A stretch of 64,000 bases of DNA. Origin: Promethearchaeota archaeon. Its GTDB lineage: Archaea > Asgardarchaeota > Lokiarchaeia > Sigyniarchaeales > SOKP01. The DNA lies in contig JAGXNO010000013.1 of NCBI GenBank assembly GCA_019894975.1, positions 10,637 to 74,636 of the forward strand. The letters are read 5' to 3'. Position 1 is the first letter of the stretch. Every line of letters begins with the position of its first letter. Shown here piece after piece: positions 34,889-63,506 of this stretch. A model generated the notes under the pieces. That model saw only the letters and a list, made by a program, of their open reading frames with translations, was not told the origin of the DNA and made no database searches. The position numbers were made by a program, and so were the translations under genes.

Positions 34889-36031
34889 ATGGAAAAGAAA
34901 GTATTAATTGCTTCGGAATCAGCATTTCGAAGGAATTTTCTATCTGAAATACTTGGGTCTCACAAGAATATAAGAATAGTGGGTCTTGTAAGGAATGCTA
35001 AAGAAGCATTAGAAATAATTGGGAACCAAAGTCAAGATGCTCTAATTTTAGATATTGAATTTGAGAATGAAGATTGGTTTAGTCAATTTTATCCAATGAT
35101 GAAAACCTTTCCAATTAAAACTATTATCTTAAGTGATAAAAATCCTGAAACGCTGGATTCTTCGAAGATACCTATAATTTTAAAATCATATGATTATATC
35201 GTTAAACCTGATGGTATTTGGAAGGAAGAATTGCCGAAAATTAGGGATGTAATAATTTCAAAAGTGTTAATGGTTGACATACCTAAAATACATAAATTAG
35301 ACAGTAGAACAAGACAGTTTAATAAAAATTTATTCATAAAACAAAGTCAGAAATCAGATGAAACAAACCATCAAAATTCTACTAAGATAATTAAACCAAA
35401 TATTTCCTCAAGATCAGAGGAGTACTTTTTAGATCTATCACCCTTTACCATTAAAAAACTAGAAACAAAAATTGTTGTAATAGGAGCTAGTGTAGGGGGC
35501 CCTAGAACACTAAAAACTATCTTTAGTGAAGTTCCCCAAGATTTTTCTGCCCCTATATTAGTTGTTCAACATTTGAACCATCTCTTTATGCGACAGTTTG
35601 TAACTTCTGTAAGGAATATTTGTAAATTAGAGGTAAAGATTGGACTAAATTATGAAGAGATTCAACCCGGAATAATTTATTTCTCTCCTGGAGACAAACA
35701 TATGCAAGTCACCGTTAAAAATAGCAAACCTTGTATTAGAACGTTTGAGGGAGAACCAGTAAATTTTTGCAGACCATCTGTAGATGTACTATTTTATTCT
35801 ACTACAAGAGTGTATAAGGAAAAAACTCTCGGGATATTATTGACCGGAATGGGAAAAGATGGTGTTAATGGACTTCAAGCGATTAAAGCTGAAGGGGGAA
35901 AGACAATTGCTGAATCTGAAGAAACAAGTATATTATATGGTATGCCTAAAGTTGCTGCTGAAACTGGGGCTGCAGACAAAATTATACCCAATTATAATAT
36001 TGTAAAAGAAATGATAAGATTTGCGAATTAA
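34889..36031 (+). CDS. cheB: CheB-type receiver-methylesterase
   Basis: Receiver-like N-terminus (LILDIE, YIVKP); GASVGGP, VQH, RPSVD, LTGMGKDG, YGMP. Confidence 0.88.
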   Translation: MEKKVLIASESAFRRNFLSEILGSHKNIRIVGLVRNAKEALEIIGNQSQDALILDIEFENEDWFSQFYPMMKTFPIKTIILSDKNPETLDSSKIPIILKSYDYIVKPDGIWKEELPKIRDVIISKVLMVDIPKIHKLDSRTRQFNKNLFIKQSQKSDETNHQNSTKIIKPNISSRSEEYFLDLSPFTIKKLETKIVVIGASVGGPRTLKTIFSEVPQDFSAPILVVQHLNHLFMRQFVTSVRNICKLEVKIGLNYEEIQPGIIYFSPGDKHMQVTVKNSKPCIRTFEGEPVNFCRPSVDVLFYSTTRVYKEKTLGILLTGMGKDGVNGLQAIKAEGGKTIAESEETSILYGMPKVAAETGAADKIIPNYNIVKEMIRFAN

Positions 36032-36248: not shown

Positions 36249-36340
36249 CATTCTATAAATCTGAATATACTTTAGTAAAATTTTTTAACTTTGTTTTATT
36301 CTAAAACTCACTAAGTTTAAAAAATATTCTTAGAAACTTA

Positions 36341-36412
36341 GGACGCAAATTAAAGCGGTTTCGATATATATTAGATATTGAAATAAAGAAGTTTTACTTT
36401 AATCACGCGTTC
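36341..36412 (+). promoter_or_regulatory. Structured hairpin upstream of rpl11 (candidate leader)
   Basis: Nested stems GGACGC/GCGTTC, TAAAGC/GTTTTA and TTTCGATAT/ATATTGAAA with G-U pairs on the + strand; TTTAAAAA about 20 nt upstream. Confidence 0.45.
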
Positions 36413-36465
36413 TTAACCTTTAGATTATTTTTTAGACCAAGATAATTGAAAAAAAGTGAAATTGT

Positions 36466-36998
36466 GTGAGTACTAAAGGAAAGGTAATTGTTAAGGCACT
36501 TGTAACCGGTGGTAGTGCTTCAGGTGGGCCGCCTATTGCATAAAGCATATTGCTTTTGTGAAGTTCGGTAAAGGTCCCGCCGTAGGCCCAACTGGTATCA
36601 ATATCAAAGACGTGGTCGACGAGATCAATGAAAAAACGATGGTCTTTAAAGGCTTAACTGTACCGGTCAGAATAGAATGTGATCCAGAAACCAAGCAATT
36701 TGAAATTTATATTGAAACACCTTCTACAGCATCATTACTCCTTAAAGAAGTAGGCGCAGAAAAAGGGAGCTCAGCAAGTTCAGAAAAGATAATCGGTGAT
36801 CTATCACTTGATCAAATAGTTACTGTCGTTCAAGCAAAGAAGGATAAATTTCTAGAAAAGAATTTGAAGCTCGCAGTTAAATCAGTTCTAGGGACGGCTT
36901 TATCCATTGGAATAACTGTTGAGGGAGAAGATCCCAGAGAAATTCAAAAAAGAGTAGAAAGTGGAGAATTTGACGATAAAGTGAGGGGTGAACTATAA
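36466..36998 (+). CDS. rpl11: 50S ribosomal protein uL11, two exons (36466-36536 and 36572-36998), 165 aa after joining
   Basis: Exon 1 MSTKGKVIVKALVTGGSASGGPP-, exon 2 -GPAVGPTGINIKDVVDEINEKT...; first gene of the L11-L1-L10-L12 block. Confidence 0.93.
36537..36571 (+). other. Candidate 35-nt BHB/BHL-type intron in rpl11 mRNA
   Basis: In-frame TAA; length not a multiple of 3; GGGCC/GGTCC exon helix, GCCT/CGGT central helix, 3-nt ATT and AAA bulges; canonical cuts give CCG CCT ATA GGT CCC (PPIGP). Confidence 0.8.
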
Positions 36999-37000
36999 AG

Positions 37001-37729
37001 ATGAAAGTAGACGATAAATTACTAAGAAGATCTTTGGATGTAGCAATGGATTTTGCAGTCCTCAAAAAAGAAGGATTCAAAGATAAAATTCGAAAATTTG
37101 ATGAATCAATTGACATTATCATTAATATCAAGGACGTAAATTTAAATGATCCAAAAAACAGGATTGATAAAGAGATTATCCTCTCAAATGATGTAATTAC
37201 TGACGATAAACCTAATATATGTGTAATTGCCTCAGATGAGATTTTACTTGAAGCAAAGAAAATTGGGGTGGATACGCTCGATTCAGAAGGGTTAATCAAT
37301 TTAAACAGTGAAGAAAAGAAGTATAAAAAGAAGTTCGCGAAGAAGTATGAATTTTTTGTTGTAGAAGATAAGTTGATGCGTGATGTCGCTCGATATTTAG
37401 CAAGATTTCTTGGACCCTTAGGAAAAATGCCAAAACCTTTTCCTACAGGTTATGGAATAATATCCAGTCCGGAAGATTTACAAGTTGCTTTTGAGCGGTA
37501 TAAAAAAGTGATTCGTGTTCAAATGAAAAAACAACCGATCATTTTTCTAAAAATAGGGAAGAAATCTATGGATGCTGATAAATTATTTGAGAACATGAAA
37601 ACTGTTGTTAATTTTATAGGAGATCAAATGCCCCATAAGTTCAACAACTTCAAATCCATGCATTTAAAATCAACCATGGGGAAACCAGTTAAAGTAAGTG
37701 AACAATTTTTAAATGGTATAGAGGTGTGA
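37001..37729 (+). CDS. rpl1: 50S ribosomal protein uL1
   Basis: RKFDESID, LGPLGKMPKP, KSTMGKP. Confidence 0.95.
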   Translation: MKVDDKLLRRSLDVAMDFAVLKKEGFKDKIRKFDESIDIIINIKDVNLNDPKNRIDKEIILSNDVITDDKPNICVIASDEILLEAKKIGVDTLDSEGLINLNSEEKKYKKKFAKKYEFFVVEDKLMRDVARYLARFLGPLGKMPKPFPTGYGIISSPEDLQVAFERYKKVIRVQMKKQPIIFLKIGKKSMDADKLFENMKTVVNFIGDQMPHKFNNFKSMHLKSTMGKPVKVSEQFLNGIEV

Positions 37730-37733
37730 AAAA

Positions 37734-38630
37734 ATGATTACAAAATCGCATATACCGCAGTGGAAATTAGAAGAAGTAAATAATTTAATTGAATTATTTA
37801 AAACTTATAGTAATGTCGCTGTTATAGAAGTTGCTCACCTAAATGATTTGCAAATCCAAACCATGCGTAAGATTTTACGGGGAAAAGCTATATTTCGAAT
37901 GTCGAAGAAATCTCTACAGACTAGAGCAATTGAGAAATTCAAAAAGGAATCAAAAAAGGCAAATTTAGATGAATTGGCATCGCATATTCCGGGTCAATCA
38001 AGTCTTGTGTTCACGAATCTTGATTTAATAGAACTAAAAAGTATATTCCATGATTATGAGTGGATGGTTCCAGCAAAACCAAATGATATCACACCTGTAG
38101 ATATCTGGGTACCCGAGGGAGATACGGGATTACCAACTGGTCAAGTTATTAGTGAGTTAAACATGACTTTAAAGCTCCCTACAAGGATCATGAATGATAC
38201 AATACACATACGTGAGGATACAAGAACTCATAAGGCAGGAGATCTGGTGAGTGTAAAACAAGCAGCTGTGTTGAAAAAACTTGGTATTACCCCCATAGAA
38301 TCTTTAATTAAGATTCACTTCGCTTGGGCTGATGGTGAAATTATCCCAGAAGATGTTTTATATATGGATATGGATCAATTCAAACGTGATGTGGTAACAG
38401 GATATAGAGAAGCACTTGCTATTCTCTTTGAAATGCCCTTTATTGAAGGAAGCATGACAGAAGAATATCTTCGTAAGGCTGTATCTGAAGCTAACACTAT
38501 CGAAGCGATGTTATTTGGAGAGGGTATTCCTACCCCTACTGAACCAGAAGCAAAGAAAGAAGAGAAGAAGAAGGACGATGAAGAGGAGGAACCGGGTGAG
38601 GAAGTTGGCATTGGAGGATTGTTTGGATAA
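37734..38630 (+). CDS. rpl10: 50S ribosomal protein uL10 (P0)
   Basis: IPQWKLEEV, GDTG, LKKLGITP, acidic tail ending GIGGLFG. Confidence 0.95.
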   Translation: MITKSHIPQWKLEEVNNLIELFKTYSNVAVIEVAHLNDLQIQTMRKILRGKAIFRMSKKSLQTRAIEKFKKESKKANLDELASHIPGQSSLVFTNLDLIELKSIFHDYEWMVPAKPNDITPVDIWVPEGDTGLPTGQVISELNMTLKLPTRIMNDTIHIREDTRTHKAGDLVSVKQAAVLKKLGITPIESLIKIHFAWADGEIIPEDVLYMDMDQFKRDVVTGYREALAILFEMPFIEGSMTEEYLRKAVSEANTIEAMLFGEGIPTPTEPEAKKEEKKKDDEEEEPGEEVGIGGLFG

Positions 38631-38706
38631 TTAAATATGATTTTTTTAAAGTTCAATCAAAAATACAAATATAATGTTAAAAAAAATATAATAGAGGTTA
38701 AAAAAT

Positions 38707-38994
38707 ATGGAAAGTATCTATGCTGCATTATTGCTTCATAAAGTTGGTGGAAAAATTTCAGAAGCAAGTGTAGAAAAAGTATTAACTGCTGCCGGTGGGA
38801 AAGCTGATAAAGATGAAATCGCAAAACTTATCGCCGGTTTAAAAGAAACCAAAATTGATGACATCATTAAGTCTGCTGGCTCAATGCCAGTGATGGCTGC
38901 CCCAGCTGGAGATAAAAAGGAAGCAAAGAAAGAAAAGAAAAAGAAAGAAGAAGAAGTTGAAGAAGAACCTACAGGTATCGGATCGCTCTTTTAA
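38707..38994 (+). CDS. rpl12: Ribosomal stalk protein aP1/L12
   Basis: MESIYAALLLH, acidic tail ending GIGSLF. Confidence 0.95.
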   Translation: MESIYAALLLHKVGGKISEASVEKVLTAAGGKADKDEIAKLIAGLKETKIDDIIKSAGSMPVMAAPAGDKKEAKKEKKKKEEEVEEEPTGIGSLF

Positions 38995-54723: not shown

Positions 54724-54854
54724 TCAAAATCACTTTCAATTGATACATTATAAATAAAATTAATAAGGCATTTTTTCAAATAATTCTTTTGCTATTTTTT
54801 CATAATGGGAAATATAATAGAGGAAAGAAAAAAATTAATTTTATGGGAGGGAAT

Positions 54855-54947
54855 TGGCGGCCCTCGAGGGGAATCGAACCCCTATCCCTTCGCAGGATAA
54901 CTGGGTTTGAAGCCCAGTGTCAGAGACCACTCCAACCGTCAAGGGCC
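54855..54947 (-). tRNA. selC: tRNA-Sec(UCA), 9/4 fold, CCA encoded
   Basis: 9-bp acceptor GGCCCTTGA/TCGAGGGCC, 4-bp T stem, 7-bp D stem, CT-TCA-AA loop, long variable arm. Confidence 0.95.
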
Positions 54948-61724: not shown

Positions 61725-63506
61725 CTAACTAAAAACCCACTTAACAATATCTCCATTCTTCAAGTTGTATTTATCAGAACTAACTCCAGGAAAATCACTG
61801 TTAACAGAATATCGCCAGTTCCCTTTCACTCCGTCTATTTCTTCTACAAGGATACCCATTTCACCATAATCTTTATATTCTATTTGACACCCATTTATCA
61901 AAGCGTCAAAAGCAGTTGTATTATAGTCAGTCAACTCAAAGTTTTCTATTGTCTTAACTGTTCCATTCCCATAATCGACAATTAAGGTTAAATTATGGAC
62001 TTCTCTTAAAGGTTTATTTACATCTGCAATCTCTATACTAGTAGTAAATACAAAAAATGAAGCAAAACTCGCAGTAGCCAAAATTGCAATCAAAGCGTAC
62101 TTGTTAAATTTCCTATAATTAGATTTTAACTTTGCAACAAGTAAAGATGCTGATACTAATATTATGCTTAACGAGGTTATAATTATATATGGGAGGAATT
62201 TAAGGAATAAATTATCTGGGGGAGGTATATCTTCTCCAGATGGTTCCCATGGAATATAGTTTTCAAGTGTCATTTCAAGTAAATAACCTGAAACTGAACT
62301 ATTAGCCCAAAGTAATAGCCCTGTATGTTTTTCGTAGATCATATAAGTTCTCTGACCACCACCGATTTGATCAAATGAGATTCTGATAGTTAAGTGTGTT
62401 TCTTCAAAAGAAACTAACCCACTTACAAACCCTGATGCTTCTTCTAATGCCAAATTCTTTACTTTAGTTAAATTATCTATAATCGGTATAAGAAACCCAG
62501 GTTGAAAGTTATTATGCCCCAAAATTAGACTCCAAGAAAGTTCACTACTAGATTTATTTGACAAAGTAAAATTAGTTGATAAAATACCTGAACTATTATC
62601 CAATATCTCGATATCAAACCAAGGAATTGGATCATCGATGACATTACCCCAATCATTAGGATCTTTGTCATAAAAACCTGTTAGATTAAGTTTAATTTGT
62701 CCACCCGCACTTGTTCTCCAATCTCCTTCAAGTCCAAATGTTAAATTGTACCAACTTGTTGCTCCACTAAATTGAATGACATTGTAGATAAACCTATCAT
62801 CCATAGTGAAGTTTAATGATCTAATTTCAAGTAAATAACCAAAAACACTAGTTTTTGCCCATACCAAAAGTCCTGTCCCTTTATCATATATCATATATGT
62901 TTTTTGATTTCCGCCAATTTGATCAAAACCAATATAGAGAAAATTATGAGTTTCTTCCACATTAACTTCCCCTGCAAGATCATATAATCCTCCAGGATCT
63001 GCTTGACCTAAAGCAGAATTTTTTATATATGTTAGATTATCGTTAGGTATCAAAAACCCTGGTTGAAAAACATTATAACCAAGTGTTAGTGCTCTCGAAA
63101 TTTCGCTATTAGACCTATTATTTAAAGTAAAATTTGTAGAAAGTATTCCAAGATTATATTCTAAAATTTCAATGTCTAACCATGGTATTGGATCCTCAAA
63201 CAAATTACCCCAATCATAAGGATCTTTGTCATAAAAACCTGTTAAATTAAGTTTTATTTGGCCCCCTGCATTAGTTTTCCAATTTCCTTCAAATCCGCCT
63301 GCAAAATTATACCAACCAACTTCTGTATTAAATTGAGTTATATTATAAACATAGGTTCCATTTATGTCTAAGTCTTGAGAATATGAGACAGGAATACTGG
63401 AGTCAGCCTTCGCAATTGGAATAGAACTTTGGTATAGAATTTGTATCAATAAAAGTAATCCAATTATAGATAGGGCTTTTTTTGGGTTTTTCATATTTAT
63501 TACCAT
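61725..63506 (-). CDS. Secreted/membrane protein with a tandem ~185-aa repeat and C-terminal DUF4430 (transcobalamin-like) domain
   Basis: Signal peptide, duplicated GGQIKLNLTGFYDKDP.DWGN block, 2 TM, TTAFDAL...VEEIDG...WRYSVN...LKNGD. Confidence 0.75.
   Translation of the reverse strand: MVINMKNPKKALSIIGLLLLIQILYQSSIPIAKADSSIPVSYSQDLDINGTYVYNITQFNTEVGWYNFAGGFEGNWKTNAGGQIKLNLTGFYDKDPYDWGNLFEDPIPWLDIEILEYNLGILSTNFTLNNRSNSEISRALTLGYNVFQPGFLIPNDNLTYIKNSALGQADPGGLYDLAGEVNVEETHNFLYIGFDQIGGNQKTYMIYDKGTGLLVWAKTSVFGYLLEIRSLNFTMDDRFIYNVIQFSGATSWYNLTFGLEGDWRTSAGGQIKLNLTGFYDKDPNDWGNVIDDPIPWFDIEILDNSSGILSTNFTLSNKSSSELSWSLILGHNNFQPGFLIPIIDNLTKVKNLALEEASGFVSGLVSFEETHLTIRISFDQIGGGQRTYMIYEKHTGLLLWANSSVSGYLLEMTLENYIPWEPSGEDIPPPDNLFLKFLPYIIITSLSIILVSASLLVAKLKSNYRKFNKYALIAILATASFASFFVFTTSIEIADVNKPLREVHNLTLIVDYGNGTVKTIENFELTDYNTTAFDALINGCQIEYKDYGEMGILVEEIDGVKGNWRYSVNSDFPGVSSDKYNLKNGDIVKWVFS

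What the first reader, a model, noticed from the sequence alone, without database searches (positions are those of the whole stretch)
36466..36998. Candidate tRNA-type (BHB) intron in the mRNA of ribosomal protein uL11
Seen: the uL11 N-terminus (GTG 36466, ...GGSASGGPPI) runs into TAA at 36541, and the rest of the protein (GPAVGPTGINIKD...) resumes 35 nt later in another frame, in the middle of the conserved PPxGP motif. The junction folds as exon helix GGGCC(36526-30)/GGUCC(36573-77), extendable by GGUGGG/CCCGCC; central helix GCCU/CGGU (3 pairs plus a U-C mismatch); 3-nt bulges AUU and AAA; and an intron hairpin AAAGCA-UAU-UGCUUU. Established: archaeal EndA cuts after the 2nd nucleotide of each bulge. 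Applying that rule removes 36537-36571 and gives CCG CCU AUA GGU CCC (PPIGP) and a normal 165-aa uL11. The main known archaeal mRNA intron of this type is in crenarchaeal cbf5. Inference: an Asgard ribosomal-protein mRNA that needs EndA/RtcB splicing, potentially a switch coupling ribosome synthesis to tRNA-splicing capacity and conceptually similar to eukaryotic HAC1/XBP1 non-spliceosomal splicing.
Basis: partly seen in the sequence, partly recalled or inferred. Interest (0 to 1): 0.95.

Follow-up and report, generated by a model that had tools for sequence, protein, structure and literature searches.

The report
Spliced tRNA-type intron in Asgard rpl11
The only gene found for ribosomal protein uL11 in this Loki-type Asgard archaeon is broken by a 35-base insert shaped like a tRNA intron, and public sequence from a very close relative holds the gene with exactly those 35 bases removed; the papers I could search report such splicing inside an archaeal coding sequence for only one gene (cbf5).

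Summary
Confirmed. The single rpl11 carries a 35-nt insert (36537-36571) with a stop. Cutting by the EndA rule restores a normal 165-aa uL11. The motif is a relaxed hBH, not a strict BHB. The same site is occupied in 19 of 161 Lokiarchaeia genomes (30-36 nt), with covarying pairs. One ribosomal frameshift cannot rescue 13 of them. Relatives carry similar inserts at two more rpl11 sites, some at all three. A population about 94% identical occurs both with the intron and precisely joined (AT|A, the EndA register) in two alleles, differing by 0-1 of 498 coding bases. Joined contigs start at a promoter-like position; one comes from a metatranscriptome-labelled run that the tool flags as probably DNA. 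Splicing is very likely (0.92) but not shown on raw reads or in vitro. The regulatory-switch and HAC1 reading is unsupported: the intron is patchy, often precisely absent, and similar inserts sit in unrelated genes here (EF-1alpha, purA, an activase). This is a new variant of the crenarchaeal cbf5 intron. This scan noted the same phenomenon before on other DNA, including rpl11.

The parts
36316..36323 (+). TATA-like box (inferred promoter of the rpl11-rpl1-rpl10 operon)
   Evidence: Sequence. Joined contigs begin at 36331-36342 while DNA contigs run on upstream. Inference.
36342..36465 (+). Probable 5' leader, about 124 nt (start inferred)
   Evidence: The X10 contig and L348 both begin at 36342; an X11 RNA contig is laid from 36338. 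A hint only, since contigs cannot show RNA ends.
36466..36536 (+). rpl11 exon 1 (23 codons plus 2 nt)
   Evidence: Translation; intact in 18 of 19 carriers, one not resolved by my pattern.
36526..36534 (+). 5' strand of exon helix (36526-30) and central helix (36531-34)
36535..36537 (+). 5' cleavage site, cut after 36536 (relaxed bulge)
   Evidence: EndA rule; joint 36536 to 36572 with no ambiguity; L346-L348.
36537..36571 (+). 35-nt intron with in-frame TAA at 36541-36543
36542..36556 (+). Conserved intron hairpin, 5-bp stem and 5-nt loop
   Evidence: 96.8% of cells paired; G-C/A-U swap on both sides in 6 of 19; loop consensus.
36566..36572 (+). 3' strand of central helix (36566-69) and 3' bulge AAA (36570-72), cut after 36571
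   Evidence: GG kept in 18-19 of 19 carriers and AAA in 18 of 19, next to variable intron columns.
36572..36998 (+). rpl11 exon 2
   Evidence: Pfam L11_N positions 17-58 and L11; single copy in the genome.
37001..38994 (+). Downstream rpl1, rpl10 and P1/P2 genes, intact (operon context)
   Evidence: ORFs; Pfam labels on orthologous contigs.

Best explanation
This is a short intron in the coding region of the uL11 mRNA. The pre-mRNA folds so that exon 1 pairs with exon 2 and with the 3' end of the intron (relaxed bulge-helix-bulge). The two-subunit tRNA splicing endonuclease cuts after 36536 and 36571, RtcB joins the exons, and the message encodes full-length uL11. Unspliced message gives a 25-residue peptide. 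Shown: the anatomy, the conservation, the presence of the enzyme genes, and a precisely joined form in a sister population. Inferred: that the joined form is RNA, and that EndA and RtcB do the work. The intron is most likely one of many small introns gained and lost in this family, tolerated because EndA is permissive, and not a dedicated switch.
For: Single rpl11 copy. Same-site inserts of 30, 31, 35 and 36 nt in 19 genomes of three genera; all break the frame and all are restored by the EndA rule. Pairing 90.9%; covariation score above all 500 shuffles and above all slid controls (relatedness inflates this). The third base of the first Pro codon, which pairs in the central helix, is G in 18 of 19 carriers versus 3 of 21 non-carriers (kin are not independent). 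Two more rpl11 sites carry perfect 4-bp central helices, and a triple-intron gene splices to a normal protein. Joined contigs L346-L348 differ from intron-bearing L351, L353 and L356 by 0-1 of 498 coding bases, in both alleles, and read AT|A where the genomic 5' side reads ATT. Run X10 holds this population's contig skipping exactly 36537-36571 and has no contig depth at 36551, inside the intron. DNA run X6 of the same study covers the intron and shows no such joint. Two EndA paralogues (one with Tyr/His/Lys motifs, one without) and RtcB are present. Asgard EndA is the (alpha-beta)2 type with the loop for relaxed motifs (PMC5829648).
Against: No raw RNA reads were available. The tool flags X10 as probably DNA, and the library type of ENA assemblies ERZ25073492/499/500 is not on record, so the joined contigs could be intronless DNA alleles; such DNA relatives exist (L349 and L350, labelled METAG, and L357). 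X10 and those assemblies may be one study. One intron-bearing contig (L355) also starts near the promoter. The window's own strain was not seen joined. The fourth central pair fails in 9 of 19 carriers, and L319 has a weak central helix. RNA runs X11 and X17 do not cover the junction.
Confidence: 0.92

Rival explanations
1. Translational recoding: the ribosome shifts -1 before the TAA and reads through the insert (177-aa uL11), or hops over it.
For: In this window the exon-2 frame is open across the insert. One Logan contig (L363) has an extra T that opens a 177-aa frame.
Against: A single shift is possible in only 6 of 19 carriers, and no slippery heptamer precedes the stop in any. Ten carriers have inserts of 30 or 36 nt with in-frame stops. 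The insert splits the conserved PPxGP motif seen in solved L11 chains. Joined nucleic-acid forms exist.
Confidence: 0.02
2. The gene is functionally truncated or decaying: translation restarts at GTG 36558 (146 aa, as databases call it), or uL11 is dispensable.
For: An in-frame GTG lies in the insert; 145-146-aa versions are common in protein collections. uL11 is dispensable in some bacteria (own knowledge).
Against: Eleven of 19 carriers have no usable internal start, and exon 1 is intact in 18 of 19. The same kind of insert breaks the only EF-1alpha gene of this genome.
Confidence: 0.02
3. The insert is excised or lost at DNA level only, and the joined contigs are intronless DNA alleles with no RNA splicing.
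For: X10 is flagged probably DNA. Intronless sister genomes with an ATA junction exist.
Against: This does not explain how carriers make uL11. It needs two precise losses in two alleles whose marker sites lie 6-9 nt from the junction. There is no target-site duplication or transposase, and the conserved pairs are RNA-type (G-U in 17 of 19 at one position). Precise loss is itself most simply explained by copying back of spliced RNA (inference).
Confidence: 0.03
4. Splicing is real and also serves as a regulated gate on ribosome synthesis, like HAC1/XBP1. This is an add-on to the best explanation, not exclusive of it.
For: The intron lies near the 5' end of the first gene of a ribosomal operon. 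Three sites cluster within about 60 nt of coding sequence. The intron hairpin and its loop are conserved beyond what the cleavage motif needs.
Against: Absent in 102 genomes and scattered on the tree. Such inserts also sit in purA, an activase and EF-1alpha. HAC1/XBP1 are cut by the stress-activated Ire1, not by the tRNA endonuclease (own knowledge). There are no condition-dependent data.
Confidence: 0.1

Closest known systems
cbf5 pre-mRNA intron of Desulfurococcales and Sulfolobales (Watanabe 2002; Yoshinari 2006; Yokobori 2009, PMC2738675)
   Same: Short non-coding intron inside a conserved motif of a coding sequence; often relaxed BHB; cuts between the 2nd and 3rd bulge base; hetero-oligomeric EndA; gains and losses among relatives.
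   Different: Different phylum and gene; cbf5 of this genome is uninterrupted at the crenarchaeal site. Here one gene has three possible sites, up to three introns and a 29-nt internal exon, and several genes per genome are hit. The intron interior has a conserved hairpin, whereas cbf5 intron interiors are described as highly variable. Cleavage is not yet shown in vitro.
BHB intron in the 5' UTR of Haloferax volcanii HVO_1309 (PMC7714728)
   Same: EndA substrate in an mRNA.
   Different: That one lies in a UTR and does not break a reading frame; euryarchaeal enzyme.
Non-canonical tRNA introns of Asgard archaea (PMC11291895; bioRxiv 10.64898/2026.10.13.758758)
   Same: Short size, BHB or relaxed motifs, repeated gain, same enzyme background.
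   Different: Those are in tRNA genes; the 2026 preprint does not mention mRNA or cbf5.
Eukaryotic HAC1/XBP1 non-spliceosomal splicing (own knowledge)
   Same: Endonuclease cut plus tRNA-ligase joining of an mRNA; RtcB is the ligase in animals.
   Different: Cut by Ire1 at stem-loops in response to stress; conserved and regulatory. None of that is shown here.

Membership tests
Archaeal EndA-spliced (BHB/hBH/BHL) intron, cbf5 type | Insert interrupts a conserved gene and is absent at the same position in orthologues | tested here: met
   19 carriers against 102 uninterrupted genomes.
Archaeal EndA-spliced (BHB/hBH/BHL) intron, cbf5 type | Junction forms a BHB or recognised relaxed motif (hBH, HBh', BHL) | tested here: met
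   Exon helix, central helix and 3-nt 3' bulge conserved: relaxed hBH (definitions in PMC5829648).
Strict canonical hBHBh' motif | Perfect 4-bp central helix and two clean 3-nt bulges flanked by helices | tested here: not met
   U.C mismatch at the fourth pair and no stacked intron-side helix in this window. 4 of 4 pairs in 9 of 19 carriers. Site C in relatives is canonical or nearly so.
Archaeal EndA-spliced (BHB/hBH/BHL) intron, cbf5 type | Cut after the 2nd base of each bulge gives the mature sequence | tested here: met
   Frame restored in all 19; joined contigs read AT|A.
Archaeal EndA-spliced (BHB/hBH/BHL) intron, cbf5 type | Host encodes a hetero-oligomeric EndA and an RNA ligase | tested here: met
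   Two EndA paralogues above the TIGR00324 cut-off; full-length RtcB domain.
Archaeal EndA-spliced (BHB/hBH/BHL) intron, cbf5 type | Spliced RNA demonstrated | tested here: inconclusive
   Exactly joined contigs from a sister population, with RNA-like features, but library type uncertain and no raw reads.
Archaeal EndA-spliced (BHB/hBH/BHL) intron, cbf5 type | Cleavage by EndA in vitro; circular excised intron | not testable with these tools
   Needs biochemistry or circRNA-seq.
Programmed -1 frameshift | Slippery site and conserved frame relation | tested here: not met
   no slippery heptamer; shift impossible in 13 of 19.
Self-splicing group I/II introns or other Rfam families | Catalytic RNA fold of hundreds of bases, or an Rfam match | tested here: not met
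   35 nt; no meaningful Rfam hit.
HAC1/XBP1-type regulated splicing | Stress-dependent cleavage by Ire1 at a conserved intron | not testable with these tools
   No condition data; the patchy distribution argues against it.

The most novel reading that the evidence does not exclude
Loki-type Asgard archaea run a general mRNA-splicing layer built on a spreading family of micro-introns. Their shared five-base hairpin loop (seen at all three rpl11 sites and in the EF-1alpha intron) is read by a factor beyond EndA, for insertion or for regulated splicing, so that output of translation genes is gated by splicing, a pre-eukaryotic multi-exon gene expression system.
Probability: 0.12. Interest if true: 0.95.

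Novelty: new variant of a known kind. Interest (0 to 1): 0.8.

Why it matters
Papers I could search give cbf5 as the only archaeal coding sequence with a spliced intron of this type (PMC7714728, PMC2738675). This finding puts such introns in core translation genes of Asgard archaea, the closest prokaryotic relatives of eukaryotes, with up to three introns and a micro-exon in one gene. It bears on how intron-rich, multi-exon genes could arise without a spliceosome, and it gives a small, directly testable substrate for Asgard EndA. In practice, uL11 is a phylogenomic marker and is annotated as truncated 128-146-aa proteins in carriers, so Asgard gene calls and marker sets are affected. Most subscription journals were not searchable, so absence from print is not established.

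Tried and rejected
They gave the name Promethearchaeota for a triple-intron relative (L069). A de novo genome scan for BHB plus frame rescue was noisy: no count of introns per genome can be given, and I accept only EF-1alpha, the activase and purA, which restore known motifs or split one Pfam domain at adjacent profile positions. The C120 candidate has a good hairpin but falls between domains and stays unverified. The 'A' labels came from a faulty pattern and were not used; site A was re-called. RNA runs X11 and X17 had no contig over the junction, which is no evidence either way. Rfam gave nothing. Look-ups did not reveal library types. One search crashed and was redone. Searches were input slips. 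The intron loop motif was found in a strong stem in only one of 12 intron-bearing tRNA calls, so copying from tRNA introns is not supported. Assembly error, a second intact copy, self-splicing introns and transposon footprints were considered and rejected. No structure or complex prediction was run, as it could not change the verdict.

Full report
Observation. The window lies on contig C44 of a 3.93-Mb, 95%-complete genome. Its nearest named relatives are Promethearchaeota, that is Lokiarchaeia. rpl11 starts at GTG 36466, meets TAA at 36541 and resumes at 36573 in another frame, ahead of intact rpl1, rpl10 and P1/P2. It is the only rpl11 match in the genome. Removing 36537-36571 gives a 165-aa protein with the PPIGP motif, the length of uninterrupted orthologues and in register with solved archaeal L11 chains.

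Structure. The exon helix, three central pairs and the unpaired AAA bulge are well supported in the ensemble. The fourth central pair is a U.C mismatch and the 5' bulge is not clean. The motif is therefore the relaxed hBH form. [quoted passage not shown] Taken alone, the window's fold is not far from chance (z -1.56; 2.4% for the central pairs in shuffled inserts).

Relatives. A pattern search of 161 Lokiarchaeia genomes found an insert at this site in 19, in three genera of one family, and an uninterrupted site in 102; one genome (G004) had both, on different contigs. Lengths are 30 (1), 31 (1), 35 (8) and 36 nt (9). All stop or shift the frame, and all are repaired by cutting after the second bulge base. 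Across the 19, 90.9% of cells pair. The covariation score (0.183) exceeds all 500 shuffles and all slid controls, with two-sided changes in all three helices, most often (6 of 19) in the intron hairpin. Relatedness inflates these figures. The two G bases that pair with the exon are kept in 18-19 of 19 while the five or so columns before them vary freely. Congeners carry similar inserts at two more sites: after the GGS codons (36-37 nt; a 31-nt insert in L325) and inside GIN (28 nt), both with perfect central helices. G004 has all three and splices in silico to a normal protein through a 58-nt and a 29-nt internal exon. On a tree of rpl11 and rpl1 DNA the site changes state at least 12 times among 63 rows, with near-identical sisters differing. 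The non-carrier rows were a chosen subset, and recombination could add apparent changes.

Joined forms. Laying four runs on the region showed one contig in run X10 that skips exactly 36537-36571, with no ambiguity in position and 81 bases on the short side, and no X10 depth at 36551 inside the intron. The DNA run X6 of the same study covers the intron and shows no such joint. X10 is labelled metatranscriptomic, but the tool flags it as probably DNA. Separately, the closest full-length protein in the protein collection (P0001, 165 aa, 96% identical over exon 2) is encoded on three contigs from ENA assemblies ERZ25073492, 499 and 500. Intron-bearing contigs of the same population come from ERZ25073476, 486, 488, 498 and two other sources. 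Joined and unjoined forms differ by 0-1 of 498 coding bases, and both alleles of the population occur in both forms. The junction reads AT|A although the intron-bearing 5' side reads ATT, which fixes the cut in the EndA register. All three joined contigs begin at 36331-36342, just behind a TATA-like box, while five of six intron-bearing contigs run on upstream. By node rank, the three assemblies look several times smaller than the others (versus 68, 69). The variants listed (T36371A, G36495A, the diverged 36385-36448 stretch, and in X6 the ATC inserted after 36325) tie the X10 and X6 contigs to this population, and X10's contig starts at 36342 like L348. This is what RNA versus DNA libraries would give, but library types are not on record and the two sources may be one study. 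True intronless DNA relatives exist (L349, L350, L357), and these have lost the pairing bases at synonymous positions, unlike the joined contigs.

Machinery and other genes. The genome has two EndA paralogues, one with Tyr, His and Lys motifs and one without, and RtcB. A noisy de novo scan recovered the rpl11 intron and two others that pass a homology test. One is a 30-nt stop-containing insert in the only EF-1alpha gene, absent at that position in all 22 congeners with a match; it splits Pfam PF00009 at profile positions 81/82. The other is a 30-nt insert in an activase whose paralogues are intact.

Mechanism and rivals. The best explanation is EndA cleavage and RtcB ligation of the pre-mRNA (0.92). 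Frameshifting fails in 13 of 19 carriers and has no slippery site. Internal re-initiation fails in 11 of 19, and exon 1 stays intact. DNA-only loss does not explain how carriers make uL11. The regulatory reading is possible but unsupported: a conserved switch should not be absent from most relatives or be shared with unrelated genes. One point is unexplained. The intron hairpin and its five-base loop (roughly Y-A-W-W-U-Y-R with the closing pair) are conserved at this site, recur at the two other rpl11 sites and in EF-1alpha, and are not part of the cleavage motif. Such hairpins occur by chance in about 0.4% of 35-nt windows of this genome. This could reflect common origin, folding stability or a binding factor.

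Comparison and novelty. It works like, and meets the testable defining features of, the crenarchaeal cbf5 intron (PMC2738675). As of 2020 that was the only reported case besides a Haloferax UTR intron (PMC7714728). Searches found Asgard tRNA-intron papers but none on Asgard mRNA introns. It is a new variant of a known kind: new phylum, core translation genes, several introns per gene. This scan has noted the same phenomenon in at least 35 genomes, including rpl11; those notes are unchecked and were used only as leads. Interest 0.8.

Noticed in passing
L035 (G000:C107:21215-21244, minus strand): 30-nt stop-containing BHB insert in the single EF-1alpha gene, just after the DAPGH motif; absent at that position in all 22 congeners with a match.
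   Followed up: yes
L286 (G004) and L289 (G001), EF-1alpha 5' end: A different insert of about 31 nt splits the P-loop (GHIDHGK/ST) of EF-1alpha in two congeners.
   Followed up: partly
L036 (G000:C22:42270-42299): 30-nt BHB insert in a BadF/BcrA-type activase gene; paralogues are intact at the motif.
   Followed up: yes
G000:C86, about 62900-62935, plus strand: 32-nt insert with a perfect central helix inside the Asp codon of the purA GDEGKG motif.
   Followed up: yes
L037 (G000:C120:110770-110799, minus strand): 30-nt perfect-looking BHB insert between a zinc ribbon and a LOR/scramblase-like domain; not verified by homology.
   Followed up: partly
L003, L012, L021 (site A); L016-L024 (site C); L021, L309 (all three): Two further intron sites in rpl11 of relatives, and triple-intron genes with a 29-nt internal exon.
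   Followed up: yes
Introns at all three rpl11 sites, EF-1alpha, and one tRNA-Leu (G000:C33:12691-12804): Shared apical hairpin with a five-base loop, roughly Y-A-W-W-U-Y-R; function unexplained.
   Followed up: partly
L316 (G109): A 31-nt insert of different sequence at the same rpl11 site, next to an intronless near-identical sister: a possible independent gain.
   Followed up: no
L363 (Logan SRR29492071): One extra T makes a 36-nt insert with an open frame (177-aa product); the coding sequence is otherwise identical to 35-nt carriers, so it may be an assembly slip.
   Followed up: partly
L319 (G123) and L269: 30-nt version with a weakened central helix (middle mismatch); predicted fold does not favour the motif, a useful test of EndA tolerance.
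   Followed up: partly
G004:C161:3349: Second, intronless rpl11 fragment at a contig end in the triple-intron genome; possibly contamination (6%).
   Followed up: no
G000 whole genome: ARAGORN finds only 28 tRNAs, 12 with introns, so many tRNA genes are probably missed because of introns; two RtcB matches (C90, C48).
   Followed up: no
window 34889-36031: CheB-like chemotaxis methylesterase ORF directly upstream of the operon, in a position where close relatives have other genes.
   Followed up: no
window, about 54763-54855, minus strand (G000:C44:65491-65583 is the call): ARAGORN calls a tRNA-Sec at C44:65491-65583 (window 54855-54947), and a SelB-like GTPase match lies near C44:70439-71245.
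   Followed up: no
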